Positions 3,328 through 39,736 of a DNA stretch of 53,697 nt are shown here, in pieces. The position numbers and the translations under genes were made by a program. The stretch covers positions 1-53,697 of the IMG/VR virus record IMGVR_UViG_3300044626_001013; one strand, 5' to 3'. The notes beneath the pieces are model-generated. The model saw only the letters and a program-made list of their open reading frames with translations. It did no database searches and was not told the DNA's origin. This DNA comes from a virus. Its lineage: Duplodnaviria; Caudoviricetes. Position 1 is the first letter of the stretch. Each line of letters opens with the position of its first letter.

Positions 3328-3729
3328 TCAGAACTCCGCCACCCGCCACCCGTCGCGGTGGCGCAAGACGTAAAACTCCACCGCCACGTCGCGCTTGCGA
3401 ATCACGACCACGGCAACGCCGACACCGAGCCGCACGTAGGTGTGGTAGCCGGTGACAGGGCTCATGCGGTGGCGGAACTCGTGCGCGTCGCCGCCCGAGC
3501 CCATGTACTGCCAGCAGTCGCCCGACAAAGGGCACTCGTCGCTGCGGTCGCCCCAGCCGCCGGCCTTCAGCACGGCGTTGAGCGCGTCCCACGCCACGGT
3601 CCACTCGAGCGTGTCGCGGTCGATGCCCCAGCGGGGCGGAAACGTCAACTGTGCCGCCTTGGCTGCCTGAATGTCCGCCAACAGTTGCGCGTCGCCGCGC
3701 CGGTTGGCACCGTTCAAAACTTCACTCAT
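3328..3729 (-). CDS. Hypothetical protein (WQYMGS...HEFRHR motif)
   Basis: 133 aa; first gene after the promoter; starts at the leader repeat. Confidence 0.7.
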   Translation of the reverse strand: MSEVLNGANRRGDAQLLADIQAAKAAQLTFPPRWGIDRDTLEWTVAWDALNAVLKAGGWGDRSDECPLSGDCWQYMGSGGDAHEFRHRMSPVTGYHTYVRLGVGVAVVVIRKRDVAVEFYVLRHRDGWRVAEF

Positions 3730-3780
3730 GGGTCGCTCCATTGAGGGGTTGATGTCGCGGGCACACGCCCGCGTAGAACC

Positions 3781-3809
3781 ATTGTACCCCTACATCGGCA
3801 CTACTGCAA
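3781..3809 (-). promoter_or_regulatory. Sigma70-like promoter TTGCAG-N17-TACAAT
   Basis: Near-consensus -35/-10 with 17-nt spacer in an intergenic gap upstream of the small-gene cluster. Confidence 0.7.
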
Positions 3810-3853
3810 GCCGACTTTAGTTTTTCGGGGAGGCGTGTCCGGTCGCCGCCGCT

Positions 3854-4774: not shown

Positions 4775-5013
4775 GGCTTGCCCTTGGTACCTCGTTCGGC
4801 TCTCCGAATCGCCTCATACGCGATGTAGTTTGCCAGCACCGCCGCCTCCATCCAGTAAGTTGCCCGCTCGTCGGGCTTGCCTTGAGCCCGTCCATAGCAG
4901 CGTGACAGTTTGACAAAGTCGGCGGCCATCACGGCCAACGCCTGCCCGGTGACGGCCAGCAACCGCCTTGCTTCGTCACGGTCGGCCTCGGCCCGATCGG
5001 TTGGGTCTTTCAT
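4771..5013 (-). CDS. Hypothetical protein
   Basis: 80 aa in tightly packed operon. Confidence 0.55.
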   Translation of the reverse strand: MKDPTDRAEADRDEARRLLAVTGQALAVMAADFVKLSRCYGRAQGKPDERATYWMEAAVLANYIAYEAIRRAERGTKGKP

Positions 5014-5015
5014 GC

Positions 5016-5297
5016 TTACCCCTTGGTGACCCGCTCGCGGATCATCGCATCGGCCATCCGATATGCCGCTTGGGCGTATTCCTCACAGCGACCTAGTGGG
5101 ATGTAGGTATTGTGGCTTTGCAGCCCGTCGTAGTCATTGCGTCGAAACGCCTCAAGCACCTCGGAGATTTGAAACGCCGCCATCGCCTTGGCCGCGAAGT
5201 AGTCGCGGAGCGTCATTCCGGTTGGTTCACTTGTGAATGTCTCTCCGTCAGCGTTGACGTACGTGTGAACAGGGAACGCTGGTTCGTTGTTGCTCAT
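5016..5297 (-). CDS. Common phage small protein (PAFP...GMTLRDYFAAKAM...AYRMADAM family)
   Basis: Recognisable widespread phage motif set. Confidence 0.85.
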   Translation of the reverse strand: MSNNEPAFPVHTYVNADGETFTSEPTGMTLRDYFAAKAMAAFQISEVLEAFRRNDYDGLQSHNTYIPLGRCEEYAQAAYRMADAMIRERVTKG

Positions 5298-5557
5298 TCG
5301 ATCTCCTTTGCCCGCAAGCGGGCCTTGCTGACGTCAACCTCTTTCTGGGCGTTCTCGACGTCATGGCGGTGGCTGTAGTCGTCGCACATATCCATGACTT
5401 CAAGCAGTTCATGCCAAGTGTCGGCATCTCGCCACGCCCTGACCTCCGCCGCAAGCACGTCGCGGAGGGCTTCACGCAACTGCGTGACGTGGTGCGTCAG
5501 TTCGTTGCGTGACATGTCTCGCGTGGACTTGCGGATAAGCGTTTGCAATGGATCCAT
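5294..5557 (-). CDS. Hypothetical protein
   Basis: 87 aa, helical, coupled stop/start. Confidence 0.6.
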   Translation of the reverse strand: MDPLQTLIRKSTRDMSRNELTHHVTQLREALRDVLAAEVRAWRDADTWHELLEVMDMCDDYSHRHDVENAQKEVDVSKARLRAKEIE

Positions 5558-5572
5558 GGGTTGGCCTTTCGT

Positions 5573-6097
5573 TCACCGCCAATAGACGGTCCGAATCCTC
5601 CGATACTCCTTGACGTCGTGGATCCTGGCTTCGTCCAGCAAGTGCGGATCCCAAACCCGCATCTCGTTGTTGGGAAGCAACCGGTATGGACCGGTCGCCA
5701 TCGCGATCACATTCAGCGGTTTGTGTTCCGCGGGCACCGTGGCCCAGTGATCGGTCCAGTCAATCACCAGCCCGGTGTGGGTGCCGTCCGCGCCATCCTT
5801 TGTTTCGGCGCGTGTCCCCGCCAGCATGGGCAGGTGCGTCACCGTGATTCGTTCGCCCATCGCCCCCCAACGACATGCCTCCTCCGGCGAGCAAAACGTG
5901 TGTGTTGCGCTTATCGCGTGAATCGGCAACCCAGACCAGTGGGCGCCCGACTCGAGCATGACGTGGCACATGACGACCTGCGACAGGCGAGAATGGACGC
6001 CATGCCACATGCCGCGGGTGACGCCAGGCGTTTGCATGCCCAGCATCTGATTCGAGACGTTCACGTAGATCGGGAATGGAAGCGTCGCGTGGTTCAT
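5573..6097 (-). CDS. Hypothetical phage protein
   Basis: 174 aa from MNHATLP with AAGGAG RBS; globular composition (LESGAHWSGLPIHAI). Confidence 0.7.
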   Translation of the reverse strand: MNHATLPFPIYVNVSNQMLGMQTPGVTRGMWHGVHSRLSQVVMCHVMLESGAHWSGLPIHAISATHTFCSPEEACRWGAMGERITVTHLPMLAGTRAETKDGADGTHTGLVIDWTDHWATVPAEHKPLNVIAMATGPYRLLPNNEMRVWDPHLLDEARIHDVKEYRRIRTVYWR

Positions 6098-6134
6098 CAA
6101 CTGCTCCTTGCCTTTCCTCGCATCGCCTGCCGTC

Positions 6135-6197
6135 GCCAAGCCTCGCCCTGCCAAGCCGCGCCCTGCCAAGCCGCGCCCTGCCAAGCCGCGCCCTGCC
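6135..6197 (-). repeat. GGC-NN pentamer tract 2 (12 units; 15-mer repeated four times)
   Basis: Plus strand GCCAAGCCTCGCCCT then (GCCAAGCCGCGCCCT)x3, then GCC. Confidence 0.95.
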
Positions 6198-6240
6198 GCC
6201 AAACCACCCACCGCCGCTGTCGCCGCGATGGATGTTCCGT

Positions 6241-6380
6241 GCCTCGCCTAGCCGGGCCCTGCCCAGACTTGCCACGCCCCGCCCCGCCTTGCCCCGCCCT
6301 GCCCCGCCCTGCCATGCCACGCCCCGCCTCGCCTCGCCAAGCCCGGCCTCGCCTTGCCGGGCCTCGCCTCGCCCTGCCAT
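6241..6380 (-). repeat. GGC-NN pentamer tract 1 (28 phased units, variable NN); candidate guide ncRNA
   Basis: 27 of 28 consecutive plus-strand 5-mers start with GCC (exception GACTT at 6266). Confidence 0.95.
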
Positions 6381-6399
6381 CACCTCTCTCTCGCCGCCA

Positions 6400-7002
6400 T
6401 TACTCTGGCGCGACGCCGTCCGCGACCTCCCAGCCGACCACGCGGAACGTGCCGAACGGCCCGCCCTTTTCCGGCCGGAAGTCGCCAATGCCCAACTGCT
6501 CGCCGCCGTCGGCCATCAACTTGAAGATGAAGTCCTCGGCCATAAGCGCGTCGTTCACGCGGATCGTGACCTTTGCCGCCCACGAATCGAACCGGGGCCG
6601 ATGCCGCATGATGCGGCCCTTCGTGCTGGGGATCACCACCGGTCTGGAATCGACCTCGTAGTTGGTCAGGGGCTCGTTGGTCTTGGGGTCCAACAGCACG
6701 ACGGCGTCATCCATCACAGTGACCGCCGCGGGAACGCCATGCTTGGCGTACTTGCGGGTGCCCTTGATCTTGATGCCGCTGCCCGCCTCCCGCATCAACC
6801 TCGCGAACGCCGCTCCCGGCACCCAGAAGCGCCCGTCGGGCAGCCGGTACACCGCCTTCTCCGCCTGCGAGCGGGGCGTCTCCTGCGTCACCATGACCTT
6901 GACGCGTCGAGTCGTCGCCGCCAACTCGCCTTCCGCCGCCTCCCCGAACCTGTGGCTCAAGAGCGGACGCGTACCCCAAATCGTTGCCGTCACCGTTTTC
7001 AT
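6400..7002 (-). CDS. Stand-alone RAMP/Cas7-like RNA-binding protein
   Basis: N-terminal strand TATIWGTRPLL, VPGAAFARLMREAG helix, RPRFDSW and C-terminal Gly-rich loop GIGDFRPEKGGPFGTFRV in RAMP order; AAAGGAAG RBS. Confidence 0.7.
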   Translation of the reverse strand: MKTVTATIWGTRPLLSHRFGEAAEGELAATTRRVKVMVTQETPRSQAEKAVYRLPDGRFWVPGAAFARLMREAGSGIKIKGTRKYAKHGVPAAVTVMDDAVVLLDPKTNEPLTNYEVDSRPVVIPSTKGRIMRHRPRFDSWAAKVTIRVNDALMAEDFIFKLMADGGEQLGIGDFRPEKGGPFGTFRVVGWEVADGVAPE

Positions 7003-7026
7003 CCTGCTTCCTTTCGTAAACTGCTC

Positions 7027-8322
7027 CTACTTCAACTCGTCGCCACTCGCGCCGAGACAAGCCCAAAGAGACACGAACGCATAAGCAGCGACCAGCGGGA
7101 CCACTCCGTTGCCGAGGGCGCGAAGTCGGTCCAGCCGAGGGGCAGCCCCATCAGCCACTCGACGAATGTCGGATTCAACCGCGGGCGCGAGGTCGGGCCT
7201 CGCGACGAGGATCCGCCGCCAGGCGATGGTGTCGGCGGGCCCGGGCGGGAACGGTCCCAAATCTGAGTGCAGGTCGTCAGGGCCGTTTGCAGCACCCGGC
7301 CGTCCTCCCGCACCGGCTTCTCGCCCGGAGTCCACGTCGCCCGCAGATCCTCGCCGGCGGTCATCGAACCCTGCGGGGTCGGCCACAACTGCTCCGCCGC
7401 CTCGTCCAGTTGGCCCATCCGCTGTCCTTCCCGGGCCGACCTCTTGTGGTCGTTCGCTCCCGGGGTCGGCCACGTCTGGCTCGCCGCCTGCAAGTCCCCG
7501 CCTCCACTTGCCGTCCGGCCCAACTCCTGCTTCCGTTGCGTCGATTCCCCCCCACCCGTGATCGTCCGCGGCGTCGGCCAGACCTTCACGACATCCTGAA
7601 GCATGATCTGTCGACCCTGCTCCGCACGTATCTTCGGATCGACGCCCGTGCCGCGGTTCCTTCTGTCCGATGCCGCGTTCGGCGTCGGCCAGGTCAGCAG
7701 CCGCTCCGTCGCGTCGGTCAACGTCGTGCCGACGTGGTGCGTCGCCGTCGGGCCGTAGCCCGCCGCGCCCGACGACTTCGCGTCGCCCGCCGTCGCCATC
7801 GGCCACGATGCCGAGGATGAACAGGCGTTCGCGGCGATGCGGCGCGCCGACTTCTGACGCAGAGAACAGTCCTGCCGCAACGCAAAAGCCCATTCCGTGA
7901 AGGTCGTCGCAAACAGCGTCGAAGCCGAGCGATAGGTGCCCTGGCACGTTCTCAAGGAACACGACGCCGGGCTCCACTTCCGCAATGATGCGAGCAATCT
8001 CCGGCCATAGATGCCGCTCATCACGCTCGCCAAGCCTTCGACCGGCTTGGCTGAACGGCTGGCACGGGTAGCCACCAGTGACAAGATCCACCGCACCACG
8101 CCATGCTGTGCCGTCAAAGGTTCGCAGGTCACTCCAGATAGGCGATGCAGGGATGGACGCTTCCGCCATGCGCGAAGCCAAGATCGCGGCGGCAAAGACT
8201 TCCCGCTCAACGTGGCACACGACCCGAGTCGCTCCGCCTGTGGCGAGGTCAAGTCCGAGGTCGAGGCCGCCGTACCCGGCACAGAGAGACAAGATGTTGA
8301 AGGGACCAGCAACCACATTCAT
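7027..8322 (-). CDS. DNA cytosine-5 methyltransferase (catalytic chain)
   Basis: Motifs I (LSLCAGYGG), IV (GGYPCQPFS), VI (ENV), VIII (HRRERLF), X (LGNGVV). Confidence 0.92.
   Translation of the reverse strand: MNVVAGPFNILSLCAGYGGLDLGLDLATGGATRVVCHVEREVFAAAILASRMAEASIPASPIWSDLRTFDGTAWRGAVDLVTGGYPCQPFSQAGRRLGERDERHLWPEIARIIAEVEPGVVFLENVPGHLSLGFDAVCDDLHGMGFCVAAGLFSASEVGAPHRRERLFILGIVADGDGGRREVVGRGGLRPDGDAPRRHDVDRRDGAAADLADAERGIGQKEPRHGRRSEDTCGAGSTDHASGCREGLADAADDHGWGGIDATEAGVGPDGKWRRGLAGGEPDVADPGSERPQEVGPGRTADGPTGRGGGAVVADPAGFDDRRRGSAGDVDSGREAGAGGRPGAANGPDDLHSDLGPFPPGPADTIAWRRILVARPDLAPAVESDIRRVADGAAPRLDRLRALGNGVVPLVAAYAFVSLWACLGASGDELK
7032..8318 (-). CDS. Overlapping-frame methyltransferase companion chain (TRD-like repeats plus motif IX-like end)
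   Basis: 428-aa open frame with four WPTP and one WPMA repeat and RLNPTFVEWLMGLPLGWTD. Confidence 0.65.
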   Translation of the reverse strand: MWLLVPSTSCLSVPGTAASTSDLTSPQAERLGSCATLSGKSLPPRSWLRAWRKRPSLHRLSGVTCEPLTAQHGVVRWILSLVATRASRSAKPVEGLASVMSGIYGRRLLASLRKWSPASCSLRTCQGTYRSASTLFATTFTEWAFALRQDCSLRQKSARRIAANACSSSASWPMATAGDAKSSGAAGYGPTATHHVGTTLTDATERLLTWPTPNAASDRRNRGTGVDPKIRAEQGRQIMLQDVVKVWPTPRTITGGGESTQRKQELGRTASGGGDLQAASQTWPTPGANDHKRSAREGQRMGQLDEAAEQLWPTPQGSMTAGEDLRATWTPGEKPVREDGRVLQTALTTCTQIWDRSRPGPPTPSPGGGSSSRGPTSRPRLNPTFVEWLMGLPLGWTDFAPSATEWSRWSLLMRSCLFGLVSARVATS

Positions 8323-10048: not shown

Positions 10049-10986
10049 TGTTGTCCCCCCTTCCGCCCCATGAGCGCGGCCACGGTTTCGGAGGCGTCCG
10101 GCTCGGTGTATTCGGCCTCGATTTTGAGGGTCCGGTGAGCCCCTTCCGGACGGGTCGCCGGACGGGCTCCGGAACGGGTCGCGGACCGGTCTGGGAAGCA
10201 CCCTTGCCACCCGTTCGCGACCGAGTCGAGCATCGCCTGAGCCGCCGCGTCGGGCCCCGCGGCGACCAGTTTGCGGATCAACGCAGAGGCCGCCAGACGC
10301 GTTATGGGCTTCCCCATGGTCCGGCGGTGGGCGTGGTACCCCTCGGCGGCCTCCTGAACGGTCGTAGGCAGGCCAGCGGCCAAGAGCATTTCGATCCAGA
10401 CCGCCACCGAGAGCGATTCCGGCTTCTTGCGGCCCCCGCCCCCCCCCGGGGGGGTTGGGGGGGTTTCTGGGCTTTTGGCGTCTGGCTTCTGGCTTCTGGG
10501 GGGCGGCAAAATCTCGGCAGGTGCCGGGTGTTTTGCCGCGGCAAAATCATCGGTTTGCCGCGGCAAATGCCCCGGCAAGTGCTGCGGCAAATGCCCCGGC
10601 AAGTGCCGCGGCAAACTCCCCGGCAAACCGTTGGTCACGGCCGCGCCGCGACGACCCGCTTCGGCCCTCACCTGCGACACCGCGCGGTCCCTGACGGTCC
10701 GCGGGCAGTACAGCGCCCCGTCGTCCCGACGCTGCGCCACGCCCGCCTCCAGCAACTCCTGCAACGCCTTGACCACGACCGGTTGCGGCCCGTTGACCCG
10801 TCTCGCGACGTCCTCAAGGCTCCACGCCTTCCCGTTGCTGGCCAGCACGCCGGGCTCGTCGCACGACCAGGCCACGCAGATCACCTCGATCCAGACGCCA
10901 CGCGCGACCAGCGACACCGCCCGCAGTTTGGCGGAGCCGAGCCAGTCGGAGGGGAAGAACTTGATGAAGGGGAGTGACGTTGCCAC
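10045..10986 (-). CDS. Phage replication initiator protein
   Basis: N-terminal PFIKFFPSDWL, central iteron-encoded linker, PPTPP, C-terminal NGWQG; next to the DnaC-like gene. Confidence 0.8.
   Translation of the reverse strand: MATSLPFIKFFPSDWLGSAKLRAVSLVARGVWIEVICVAWSCDEPGVLASNGKAWSLEDVARRVNGPQPVVVKALQELLEAGVAQRRDDGALYCPRTVRDRAVSQVRAEAGRRGAAVTNGLPGSLPRHLPGHLPQHLPGHLPRQTDDFAAAKHPAPAEILPPPRSQKPDAKSPETPPTPPGGGGGRKKPESLSVAVWIEMLLAAGLPTTVQEAAEGYHAHRRTMGKPITRLAASALIRKLVAAGPDAAAQAMLDSVANGWQGCFPDRSATRSGARPATRPEGAHRTLKIEAEYTEPDASETVAALMGRKGGQQ
10531..10627. repeat. Iteron-like repeats, probable replication origin
   Basis: Six tandem 12-mers (consensus TGCCSCGGCAAR) at 10556-10627 plus perfect palindrome TTTTGCCGCGGCAAAA at 10531-10546. 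Confidence 0.8.
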
Positions 10987-38440: not shown

Positions 38441-39736
38441 TTACCCCAGTGGGCCTCTCGGCGTAGTAGGCAAGCCGCCGCCCGCGCTTGAGGGGTTGAA
38501 CAGCCTGCCGTTCCAGCCGCCACCGCCACCGGCACCGGCACCGGCACCGGCACCGCTGGGACTGCCGCCCGGACTACGCAGGTAGTTGCCAAGCATCATT
38601 CCGCTCATGTTGCCGATGGTGTTGGCCCACGATGCCTGCGCCATCGCCCCGGGATTCAGCCCGGGAAAATACTGCTGCGTCGACCGGCCTGCCCACGGGT
38701 TGGTCATGCCGCTGCTCAACAACTGGGTCTGAAGGTTGATCGGCTGGGCTCGGTAGCCCAGCACTCGGTCCTGATTCCCCAGCATCATTTGGGTGCGACC
38801 AGTCAACCGGTTGTTGAGCAACGACGTCCGGTCGCCTCGCAACTGGTTCATCATGCCGATCTGAGCATCGTCGATGCTTGCCAACTGCTGCTGTCGGGCG
38901 TTTTCCAACTGCTCGGTTGCCCCGGTCAACTGGTTCCCCAGCACCGTCGAGTTCCCCAAACCTCGCGCCAGCAGCGACGACTGGATCAACCGGTTGTTGC
39001 CCGTGCGGGCGTCATCCATGTTCCGGTTGATCAACTCTCGACGCTTGTCGCCAAACCGCTGCGTTTCTCCCAAGGACGCGTCCATGTCACGCGACAGCGT
39101 GTTGGTCGCCTGGTCGTACTGGTCCATGGCATCGCGGCCCTGCTGCTCCGCGTCGCGAGCCAGCGTGTCGTAGCCGCTTAGGCTGCCGCCAATCTTCTTG
39201 TACTCGCCAAGGTCGAGGGCGTCTTGCGGAATGGCCTTGGCATCGTTCTCGATGGTGGCGGTCAGGTCATTCTTGGTGCGAAGCAAGGCGTCGATGTCGA
39301 CGCCGTCGGCTCGGGCCCGTTTCTTGTCGTACGTTGCGGGCTTCCAAACCTGCCTGTTGACCAACCCGTTCCCGCTTCGCTGCTTGACCCAGCGACCGCC
39401 TCGGCCGTACTTCTGGAGGTTGGCGTCCACATCGCTCAGTTGGCTGTTGAGGGCCGTCAGCCGAGCCGCGGCGTCGGGATTGCGGAACAACTGCCGCAAC
39501 TGATCCTGCCCCATGGTCCCGGCCAGCATCTGGTACGCGCGGTCGCCGCCCAGCAGCATGGCCAGTTGCCTAGCCATGCCCTGGTTCAGGTTGGTCTGGT
39601 CAAAATCGCGGTTGTCCTCGGCCGCCCTGATCTGCGAACGCGCCGCGTCTCTGGTGGCGTTGGCCGCCATGCTACCGCCGATAATGCTGCCGATACCGCC
39701 GATGATGCCGCCAAACCCACCGTCAAAGAAACTCAT
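38441..39736 (-). CDS. Putative DNA pilot/ejection protein
   Basis: GGFGGIIGGIGSIIGG N-terminus, Q/N/A-rich helical body. Confidence 0.65.
   Translation of the reverse strand: MSFFDGGFGGIIGGIGSIIGGSMAANATRDAARSQIRAAEDNRDFDQTNLNQGMARQLAMLLGGDRAYQMLAGTMGQDQLRQLFRNPDAAARLTALNSQLSDVDANLQKYGRGGRWVKQRSGNGLVNRQVWKPATYDKKRARADGVDIDALLRTKNDLTATIENDAKAIPQDALDLGEYKKIGGSLSGYDTLARDAEQQGRDAMDQYDQATNTLSRDMDASLGETQRFGDKRRELINRNMDDARTGNNRLIQSSLLARGLGNSTVLGNQLTGATEQLENARQQQLASIDDAQIGMMNQLRGDRTSLLNNRLTGRTQMMLGNQDRVLGYRAQPINLQTQLLSSGMTNPWAGRSTQQYFPGLNPGAMAQASWANTIGNMSGMMLGNYLRSPGGSPSGAGAGAGAGGGGGWNGRLFNPSSAGGGLPTTPRGPLG

What the first reader, a model, noticed from the sequence alone, without database searches (positions are those of the whole stretch)
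6241..6380. Tract 1 carries a non-repeating 28-dinucleotide string
Read on the minus strand, the NN after each scaffold triplet are AG GA GA CC AA GA CG TT GA GA GG GT AT AG GG AG GG AA GG GG GT AA TG AG CC TA GA AC. The scaffold is GGC in 27 of 28 units with no indels, while NN varies freely, which is unlike slippage-driven microsatellites. Inference: NN is the information-bearing part. If pairing skips one target base per unit, the 3-nt register could align with codon wobble positions and tolerate synonymous escape.
Basis: partly seen in the sequence, partly recalled or inferred. Interest (0 to 1): 0.85.

Follow-up and report, generated by a model that had tools for sequence, protein, structure and literature searches.

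The report
Phage VIPR guide-RNA gene (GGCNN repeats)
The 28 five-base GGC-plus-two-letters repeats are most likely the guide RNA of a phage VIPR system, a recently described CRISPR-like device that phages use to silence rival DNA, sitting right behind the gene of its RNA-binding protein.

Summary
On the minus strand, 6239-6378 holds 28 gap-free GGCNN units. Elsewhere in the window the longest in-phase run is 3 units.

The tract is non-coding and starts 21 nt after the stop codon of a 200-aa gene (6400-7002, minus). Sequence (PDB 'SUSP1 Vipr protein', profile E=2e-8, the only hit), fold (Cas7/Csm3) and conserved GGY-contact residues identify that gene as a Vipr protein.

79 of 80 viral loci with a homologue carry co-oriented, adjacent GGY-period-5 tracts, against 0 of 80 shuffled loci. 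NN content turns over while vipr stays 93-99.9% identical. Tract 1 ends in a conserved hairpin tail.

This is therefore a vrRNA of a VIPR system (2026 bioRxiv preprints). Every search for this guide's target found nothing above chance.

Unusual points: 28 units, a second tail-less tract, and no recognisable vap gene.

The scan has flagged the same kind of element before on other DNA. Verdict: a new member of a known kind.

The parts
6400..7002 (-). vipr gene: 200-aa Cas7-like RAMP protein (Vipr homologue), phrog_4652, no Pfam family
   Evidence: ORF. phrog_4652 at E=1.6e-21 with no Pfam hit. phmmer against PDB hits 36pp_D 'SUSP1 Vipr protein' at E=1.9e-4 over residues 2-180. A profile of 40 homologues has the same chain as its only hit, E=2e-8. 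The AF2 model has pLDDT 83 and pTM 0.77. Foldseek top hits are Csm3/Cas7 of type III, type VII Cas7 and Cas7-11, E 1e-6 to 1e-4.
6239..6378 (-). vrRNA 1 repeat region: 28 GGCNN units (27 GGC, 1 GTC at unit 23); the NN are the presumed guide letters
   Evidence: It begins 21 nt after the vipr stop codon, on the same strand.
6200..6238 (-). conserved 3' tail of vrRNA 1: GGAAC box, hairpin (about 6205-6234) and a GGGTGGTTTG end
   Evidence: A 39-nt motif is shared with five tails in the array of the closest viral relative L121 (identical in L127 and L087). RNAalifold on 6 tails gives 12 pairs, 5 of them with compensatory changes. These come from only two independent genomes.
6123..6197 (-). tract 2: 15 units (14 GGC), NN = (AG GC TT) x3 then AG GA TT GA; it has no tail and runs into the ribosome-binding site of the next gene
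   Evidence: A similar tail-less last tract abuts the next gene's RBS in the Chthoniobacterales MAG loci L202 and L203.
5573..6097 (-). downstream 174-aa gene (AAGGAG at about 6104-6109, ATG at 6097); phrog_3704, function unknown; candidate accessory gene only by position
   Evidence: It has no homologue in the 80 vipr loci. The Atlas search gave only leads below 0.9.
7027..8322 (-). upstream C5 cytosine DNA methyltransferase, same strand; context (early/replication module), not shown to belong to the system
   Evidence: PF00145 at E=8.5e-33. A homologue lies near vipr in 1 of 80 loci.

Best explanation
The tract is the repeat (guide) region of a VIPR RNA (vrRNA), encoded directly downstream of its partner gene vipr in a temperate-looking phage from lake-water metagenomes. 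By analogy with the characterised type II systems, the mechanism would run as follows (inferred, not shown here). The minus strand is transcribed, probably together with vipr. One Vipr protomer binds per 5-nt unit and holds each GGY flipped out. The hairpin tail caps the 3' end. The exposed NN pairs read double-stranded DNA in an NN-x-NN-x register, so 28 units would read about 83 bp. The filament then blocks transcription of a competing mobile element. What is shown here: the repeat anatomy, the homology and fold of the protein, the tight association of the two across relatives, the fast turnover of NN, and the conserved tail. What is inferred: expression, processing, the one-base skip in this clade, and the target.
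For: (1) The 200-aa neighbour is a Vipr homologue. PDB 'SUSP1 Vipr protein' hits at E=1.9e-4 full length. With a 40-sequence profile it hits at E=2e-8 and is the only PDB hit.
(2) The model (pLDDT 83) matches Cas7/Csm3 backbones, with 85 PDB chains at E<=1e-3.
(3) The residues that hold G1, G2 and Y3 in SUSP1 Vipr are H17, R138, D177, W178 and R179 (bioRxiv 10.64898/2026.04.26.720927, Results read). In the alignment they align to H17, R135, D174, F175 and R176 here. H17 is present in at least 90% of 40 homologues, and R135, D174 and R176 are invariant.
(4) 79 of 80 IMG/VR loci with a homologue (44-61% identity) have at least one GGY period-5 tract of 7 or more units within 3 kb. All are on the gene's strand and nearly all directly flank the gene (L152's only tract lies about 2.5 kb upstream; L150 and L153 also have distant extra tracts). 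0 of 80 mononucleotide-shuffled loci have one.
(5) NN turnover: 29 of 146 guides are shared at 97-99.9% vipr nt identity and 1 of 89 at 93-97%. Arrays differ by whole-unit gains and losses.
(6) The tail is conserved with relative L121 while the NN and the unit number differ (28 units here against 14-19 there), and the hairpin shows compensatory changes.
(7) Rfam finds nothing, and there is no self-target, as the preprint reports for natural vrRNAs.
Against: No target was found for this guide under any gap size, and no gap size beat shuffled guides for 498 guide chunks from related loci against 1.6 Mb of fetched loci. At 28 units the tract is about twice the 9-16 units described for type II vrRNAs. 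One unit has GTC in place of GGY. The NN are 77% purine. No accessory (vap) gene could be recognised. No RNA data exist for this phage, so expression and processing are unshown. Identity to the characterised SUSP1 Vipr is low, and a single-sequence E of only 1.9e-4 means behaviour may differ in this clade.
Confidence: 0.86

Rival explanations
1. A decaying or orphaned array. The tract descends from vrRNAs but no longer guides anything, or two guides have fused after the loss of one tail.
For: One GTC unit breaks the scaffold at unit 23. The length is twice the typical one: the clade median is 14 units with interquartile range 11-21. The NN are purine-rich. No target was found. Neighbouring tract 2 is low-complexity and tail-less.
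Against: 27 of 28 scaffold triplets are intact and in phase, and the tail is 38 of 39 identical to a tail of relative L121, so selection seems to be still acting. 23 of 234 unique tracts in this clade have 28 or more units, up to 108, so long tracts are a normal feature here. Lack of a target in the databases is expected for an uncultured lake phage.
Confidence: 0.08
2. A protein-binding array without guide function. An oligomeric protein reads GGC every 5 nt, as TRAP reads (G/U)AG triplets, to regulate the downstream gene or RNA stability, and the NN are mere spacers.
For: This was my first reading. Tract 2 sits in the 5' leader of the next gene, 25 nt before its ATG, and relatives L202 and L203 show the same arrangement.
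Against: The partner protein is a Cas7-like RAMP homologous to a protein shown to use such NN as guide letters (preprints read). Spacers without function would drift at a neutral rate and would not be replaced wholesale while the gene is 97-99.9% identical.
Confidence: 0.04
3. Slippage microsatellite, G-quadruplex-forming DNA, or a low-complexity coding segment (Gly-x-Ala-x-x pentapeptides in any frame).
For: High-GC DNA leaves several ORFs open across the tract. GG every 5 nt could form two-tetrad quadruplexes (inference).
Against: NN varies freely while GGC is fixed, which slippage does not produce. The same GGY/NN pattern occurs in viral contigs of 31-72% GC, so the constraint is on nucleotides, not codons. 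Arrays of near-identical relatives differ by gaps such as 20 columns, which would break a reading frame. The ORFs across the tract overlap the real flanking genes.
Confidence: 0.02

Closest known systems
Type II VIPR systems of Escherichia phage SUSP1 and a Pseudomonas fulva prophage (bioRxiv 10.64898/2026.04.26.720920 and 10.64898/2026.04.26.720927)
   Same: A small Cas7-like Vipr protein sits next to intergenic tandem GGY/NN 5-nt repeats on the same strand. The scaffold is conserved and the NN are hypervariable. A conserved structured 3' tail is present. The context is viral. There is no self-target. The GGY-contact residues are conserved.
   Different: The protein is only distantly related (single-sequence E=1.9e-4). 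The tract has 28 units against 9-16. The tail here is a simple hairpin, whereas a pseudoknot is described for SUSP1. No vap1-like gene was recognised. The second tract has no tail. The host is probably not a proteobacterium: the nearest genomic homologues are in Chthoniobacterales, Opitutaceae and Phycisphaerae MAGs. Neither the target nor the skip rule was shown here.
Other VIPR array architectures (types I, III-VII; staggered, ribozyme-interspersed or single-vrRNA loci) named in the same preprint, and the 99 period-5 clusters of bioRxiv 10.64898/2026.10.21.760802 (passages read)
   Same: GGY/NN repeats of variable array design sit beside a Vipr-fold protein. Long continuous and 1-nt-staggered tracts also occur among the loci I fetched.
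   Different: I could not assign a type.
Class 1 CRISPR backbone (Cas7/Csm3 filament on crRNA)
   Same: The protein fold is the same. There is one protomer per fixed RNA step, with flipped bases.
   Different: There is no repeat-spacer array, no cas genes and no Rfam CRISPR repeat. The period is 5 nt, with 3 of every 5 guide bases hidden, rather than 1 of 6.
TRAP-type binding arrays (11 (G/U)AG triplets spaced by 2-3 nt; recalled, not from a call)
   Same: A fixed triplet recurs every 5 nt and is read by an oligomer.
   Different: The partner here is a RAMP, not a TRAP-fold protein, and the spacers are replaced wholesale between close relatives.

Membership tests
VIPR system (Vipr + vrRNA) | Vipr protein: a minimal RAMP/Cas7-like fold (RRM core, G-loop, thumb) homologous to described Vipr proteins | tested here: met
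   PDB 36pp_D 'SUSP1 Vipr protein' hits at E=1.9e-4 as a single sequence. It is the only hit of the 40-sequence profile, at E=2e-8. Foldseek top hits are Csm3/Cas7 chains at E 1e-6 to 1e-4.
VIPR system (Vipr + vrRNA) | Residues that bind the GGY bases (SUSP1 H17, R138, D177, W178, R179) | tested here: met
   They align to H17, R135, D174, F175 (aromatic kept) and R176 (alignment). R135, D174 and R176 are invariant and H17 is present in at least 90% of 40 homologues. The SUSP1 residue list comes from the Results of 10.64898/2026.04.26.720927.
VIPR system (Vipr + vrRNA) | Tandem 5-nt GGY/NN repeats with a conserved scaffold and hypervariable NN | tested here: met
   27 of 28 units carry GGC. In the clade's tracts the counts are GGC 2215 and GGT 1507 against 235 for the next four triplets. 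NN turnover is shown.
VIPR system (Vipr + vrRNA) | Repeats lie in intergenic DNA flanking vipr, on the same strand | tested here: met
   The tract begins 21 nt after the vipr stop codon. 79 of 80 homologous loci show adjacent, co-oriented tracts.
VIPR system (Vipr + vrRNA) | An invariable, structured 3' tail after the repeat tract | tested here: met
   Met for tract 1: the 39-nt tail is shared with L121, and the hairpin has 5 of 12 pairs with compensatory change. Not met for tract 2, which has no tail.
VIPR system (Vipr + vrRNA) | An accessory vap gene in the locus (typical, not universal) | tested here: inconclusive
   The window's neighbours have homologues in 0-9 of 80 loci. The commonest neighbour cluster covers 20 of 80 loci and is a YqaJ exonuclease; others are ERF and DUF3310. 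The vap families are defined in supplements that I could not read.
VIPR system (Vipr + vrRNA) | The vrRNA is expressed and bound by Vipr | not testable with these tools
   No RNA holder is listed among the 24 runs.
VIPR system (Vipr + vrRNA) | NN match a natural DNA target under the one-base skip rule | tested here: inconclusive
   No match above chance was found. The collections may simply lack the target.
CRISPR-Cas | A repeat-spacer array (repeats of about 25-40 nt) with cas genes | tested here: not met
   The period is 5 nt. There is no Rfam hit and there are no cas families in the neighbours.
Slippage microsatellite | Near-identical units that vary by copy number | tested here: not met
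   Tract 1 has 12 different NN in its 28 units. Only tract 2 shows a 15-nt repeat at 97%.

The most novel reading that the evidence does not exclude
The locus holds two functionally different Vipr-binding RNAs. One is an unusually long 28-unit guide that would read about 83 bp. The other is tract 2, which is tail-less and low-complexity (AG-GC-TT repeated) and forms the 5' leader of the next gene. Tract 2 would act not as a guide but as a cis-regulatory or decoy Vipr-binding site that couples Vipr occupancy to expression of the downstream gene. The same tail-less last tract abutting a ribosome-binding site is seen in two Chthoniobacterales MAG loci.
Probability: 0.1. Interest if true: 0.55.

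Novelty: new member of a known kind. Interest (0 to 1): 0.3.

Why it matters
The finding adds an environmental (lake-water, possibly Verrucomicrobiota-infecting) example to a class of RNA-guided systems known only since 2026. It shows that, in this Vipr clade, guides can be much longer than the characterised 9-16 units. In this phage and its closest relative they end in a simple hairpin tail, and in this clade they need no obvious accessory gene. For annotation, it explains an odd 300-bp 'non-coding' stretch and names a hypothetical protein family (phrog_4652). The idea itself is already published, and this scan has met the same element several times.

Tried and rejected
Target search. The 28 NN units were scored against the array-masked window and against 200 fetched loci (1.46 Mb) at gaps of 0-3. 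The best score was 9-11 of 28, the same as NN-order shuffles. Tract 2 against the window scored 6-7 of 13, again equal to shuffles.

The one-base-skip tiles gave the following:
- Units 1-10 in viral contigs: 1 hit, whose extension matched 1 of 18 further units, so it is chance.
- Units 10-19 in viral contigs: 0 hits.
- Units 19-28: 0 hits in viral, metagenome and genome contigs.
- Units 17-26 in viral contigs: 0 hits.
- Units 13-22 in metagenome contigs: 2 hits, with extensions of 1 of 18 and 3 of 18, so both are chance.
- Units 15-28 with up to 3 mismatches: 0 of 5 genomes that carry vipr homologues and 0 of 401 genomes sampled from the order of G001.

These scans need exact or near-exact tiles, so a target with scattered mismatches would be missed.

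Skip-rule replication. 498 twelve-unit chunks from 518 unique guides were scored against the 212 loci plus the window. The score histograms for real and shuffled guides were alike at every gap size. The database is only 1.6 Mb, so this says little.

Host. DNA of the structural half of the phage against three MAGs gave only simple-repeat hits. tblastn of a 784-aa structural protein found no phage relative. There are no tRNAs. The host remains a guess.

Expression. No RNA holder is listed.

Population variation. Contigs of runs X7 and X8 that belong to this phage are identical to the window (records with 0 other letters). No piece in table 8, which was cut, carries a variant of this array together with its flanks, but the call also lists array-internal joints and a short skip in runs X9 and X10, and I did not resolve whether these are alleles or other organisms' arrays. 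At 80-90% likeness, many foreign contigs pile onto the tract, to a depth of up to 989 against about 3-8 on the flanks. By my own count from table 3, 20 of the 21 listed variant places inside the tracts fall on NN positions. This is cross-mapping of other GGCNN arrays and is biased by the scaffold, so I do not use it as evidence.

No sigma-70-like promoter or terminator was found around the tract. The Atlas search for the downstream protein gave only leads below 0.9.

Rejected readings: TRAP-like spacer array, microsatellite, G-quadruplex and coding repeat (see rivals). The VIPR type could not be assigned because supplements are closed.

Full report
**What is there.** The window is a complete virus record of 53,697 bp in one contig. 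It carries an integrase and virion protein families. Reading 6241-6380 on the minus strand gives 28 consecutive 5-nt units without any indel. 27 carry GGC and one carries GTC. The NN are not periodic: there are 12 different dinucleotides and 77% of the letters are purines.

A second tract lies at 6123-6197 (minus). It has 15 units, 14 of them GGC, and its NN repeat as AG-GC-TT. No other GGY period-5 run of 5 or more units exists on either strand of the contig. Elsewhere in the window the longest uninterrupted in-phase GGC run is 3 units, and 100 Markov surrogates reach at most 4.

**Setting.** Both tracts fill the roughly 300-nt gap between two minus-strand genes. The upstream gene is a 200-aa ORF (6400-7002), whose stop codon lies 21 nt before the first unit. 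The downstream gene is a 174-aa ORF (5573-6097), whose AAGGAG and ATG follow tract 2 by about 25 nt. Further upstream on the same strand lie a C5 DNA methyltransferase and a RuvC-like resolvase. Rfam finds nothing in 5000-8000. A consensus scan finds no sigma-70 promoter or terminator near the tract, so co-transcription with vipr is plausible but not shown.

**How I got to the identification.** My first idea was a TRAP-like binding array. Their GC content ranged from 31% to 72%, and nearly all had variable NN, so the pattern is a widespread nucleotide-level feature of viruses.

The scan's earlier notes then pointed to VIPR systems and to a preprint. I treated this as a lead and tested it. I read the following:
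- bioRxiv 10.64898/2026.04.26.720920: outline, all Results, Methods sections 20 and 26, and passages including supplementary figure legends.
- bioRxiv 10.64898/2026.04.26.720927: abstract and all Results.
- bioRxiv 10.64898/2026.10.15.759431: abstract and Methods section 17.
- bioRxiv 10.64898/2026.10.21.760802: passages only.

These papers describe Vipr, a minimal Cas7-like RAMP. It polymerises one protomer per GGY/NN unit on a vrRNA and hides the GGY bases. The NN pairs then read DNA with one skipped base per unit, often the codon wobble base, and the complex silences rival phages or satellites.

**Test 1, the protein.** The 200-aa protein has no Pfam family and belongs to phrog_4652, of unknown function. 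Against all PDB sequences its best hit is 'SUSP1 Vipr protein' (36pp_D), at E=1.9e-4 and aligned end to end. A profile of 40 homologues has that chain as its only hit, at E=2e-8.

An AlphaFold2 model (pLDDT 83, pTM 0.77) matches Csm3/Cas7 of type III, type VII Cas7 and Cas7-11 domains, at E 1e-6 to 1e-4, with 85 chains at E<=1e-3.

The SUSP1 residues that hold the GGY bases are H17, R138, D177, W178 and R179. In the alignment they align to H17, R135, D174, F175 and R176. R135, D174 and R176 are invariant in the 40 homologues, and H17 is nearly so.

**Test 2, association.** The protein has 1163 database homologues at E<=1e-3. Of 124 IMG/VR loci that encode a relative, 80 were kept (44-61% identity). 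79 of these 80 carry at least one GGY period-5 tract of 7 or more units within 3 kb. All tracts are on the gene's strand, and nearly all directly flank the gene. In L152 the only tract lies about 2.5 kb upstream, and L150 and L153 also have distant extra tracts. None of 80 shuffled loci has such a tract.

**Test 3, is NN the variable, informative part?** I compared loci pairwise by the nucleotide identity of their vipr genes and counted the guides (NN strings) they share exactly.

| vipr nt identity | guides shared exactly |
|---|---|
| 100% | 85 of 96 |
| 97-99.9% | 29 of 146 |
| 93-97% | 1 of 89 |
| 88-93% | 0 of 32 |

An alignment of five arrays next to 98%-identical vipr genes shows fixed scaffold and flanks. 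NN letters are substituted and whole units are gained or lost, including a 20-column gap that no reading frame could tolerate.

**Test 4, the tail.** After unit 28 comes a 39-nt element (6200-6238) made of a GGAAC box, a hairpin and a GGGTGGTTTG end. The same element follows each of the five tracts in the closest viral relative L121, which is identical in L127 and L087. One of those copies differs from the window's tail at a single position, while the adjacent NN and the unit numbers (14-19 there against 28 here) are unrelated. A consensus fold of the six tails gives a 12-pair hairpin with compensatory changes at 5 pairs. These come from only two independent genomes. More distant relatives keep the GGAAC-like start but have other stems.

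**What does not fit neatly.**
- 28 units is about twice the 9-16 reported for type II vrRNAs. In this clade, however, the 234 unique tracts have a median of 14 units, 23 of them have 28 or more, and the longest has 108.
- Unit 23 has GTC in place of GGY.
- Tract 2 has no tail, has a 15-nt internal repeat, and forms the leader of the next gene. The last tract in two Chthoniobacterales MAG loci is arranged the same way. I cannot say whether it is a guide, a remnant or a regulatory Vipr site.
- No accessory gene is recognisable. The window's neighbours recur in 0-9 of 80 loci. The commonest neighbours elsewhere are recombination genes: YqaJ in 20 of 80 loci, plus ERF and DUF3310.

**Target.** No search found a match above chance for this guide. 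The searches covered the window itself, the fetched loci, the viral, metagenome and genome collections, and 406 genomes with mismatches allowed. The three seeded hits extended by only 1, 1 and 3 of 18 further units. A cross-locus test of gap sizes 0-3 with 498 guide chunks showed no excess over shuffles at any gap, but the database searched was only 1.6 Mb. The absence of a self-target agrees with the preprint. The absence of any target leaves the skip rule and the victim unshown for this phage.

**Ecology.** The stretch is held by lake-water metagenome runs. The nearest genomic homologues of the protein are in MAGs of Chthoniobacterales (60-61% identity), Opitutaceae (53%) and Phycisphaerae (49%). 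The host may therefore be a verrucomicrobium. This is a guess, and DNA comparison with those MAGs gave nothing.

**Verdict.** This is a VIPR locus: a vipr gene, one long tailed vrRNA and one tail-less tract. That mechanism is supported here by family membership and NN turnover, not by a target. The kind is already described, and this scan has met it on other DNA, so I rate it a new member of a known kind, of moderate-to-low interest. The open points are the long guide, the tail-less leader tract and the missing vap gene.

Noticed in passing
window 15910-36177 (minus): A single ORF of 6755 aa covers 38% of the phage genome. Pfam finds an ADP-ribosyltransferase of polyvalent proteins (ART-PolyVal, E=6.5e-10) and weak methyltransferase domains below the Pfam cut-offs. 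It looks like a giant 'polyvalent' protein. GC drops to about 0.58-0.62 across much of it.
   Followed up: partly
window 6123-6197 (minus); L202 about 3699-3745; L203 about 3790-3845: The last GGYNN tract of the array has no tail and runs straight into the ribosome-binding site of the next gene. This is seen in the window and in two Chthoniobacterales MAG loci. It may be a leader or regulatory role rather than a guide.
   Followed up: partly
L029, L026, L101 and others (IMG/VR loci): In some arrays successive tracts abut with a 1-nt overlap and a phase shift, and each tract ends in AG. This matches the 'staggered arrays' mentioned in the preprint's figure legend. In other arrays (L158-L170) the guides are separated only by a short GGTAC box.
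   Followed up: no
window 6148-6363, runs X7-X10: Contigs from other organisms in the same lake metagenomes pile onto the tract at 80-90% likeness, to a depth of up to about 989 against 3-8 on the flanks. The phage's own contigs break inside the array. GGCNN arrays seem abundant in these communities and they fragment assemblies.
   Followed up: no
window 38517-38555 and 10556-10627: Two further tandem repeats: CCGGCA x6.5, and a 12/24-nt repeat TGCCCCGGCAAA x6. The first one caused the only DNA hits to Verrucomicrobiota MAGs.
   Followed up: no
window 5016-5297 (minus): A 93-aa protein (phrog_2201, unknown function) has homologues just downstream of vipr or its array in 9 of 80 related loci. 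The association is weak and its meaning is unknown.
   Followed up: no
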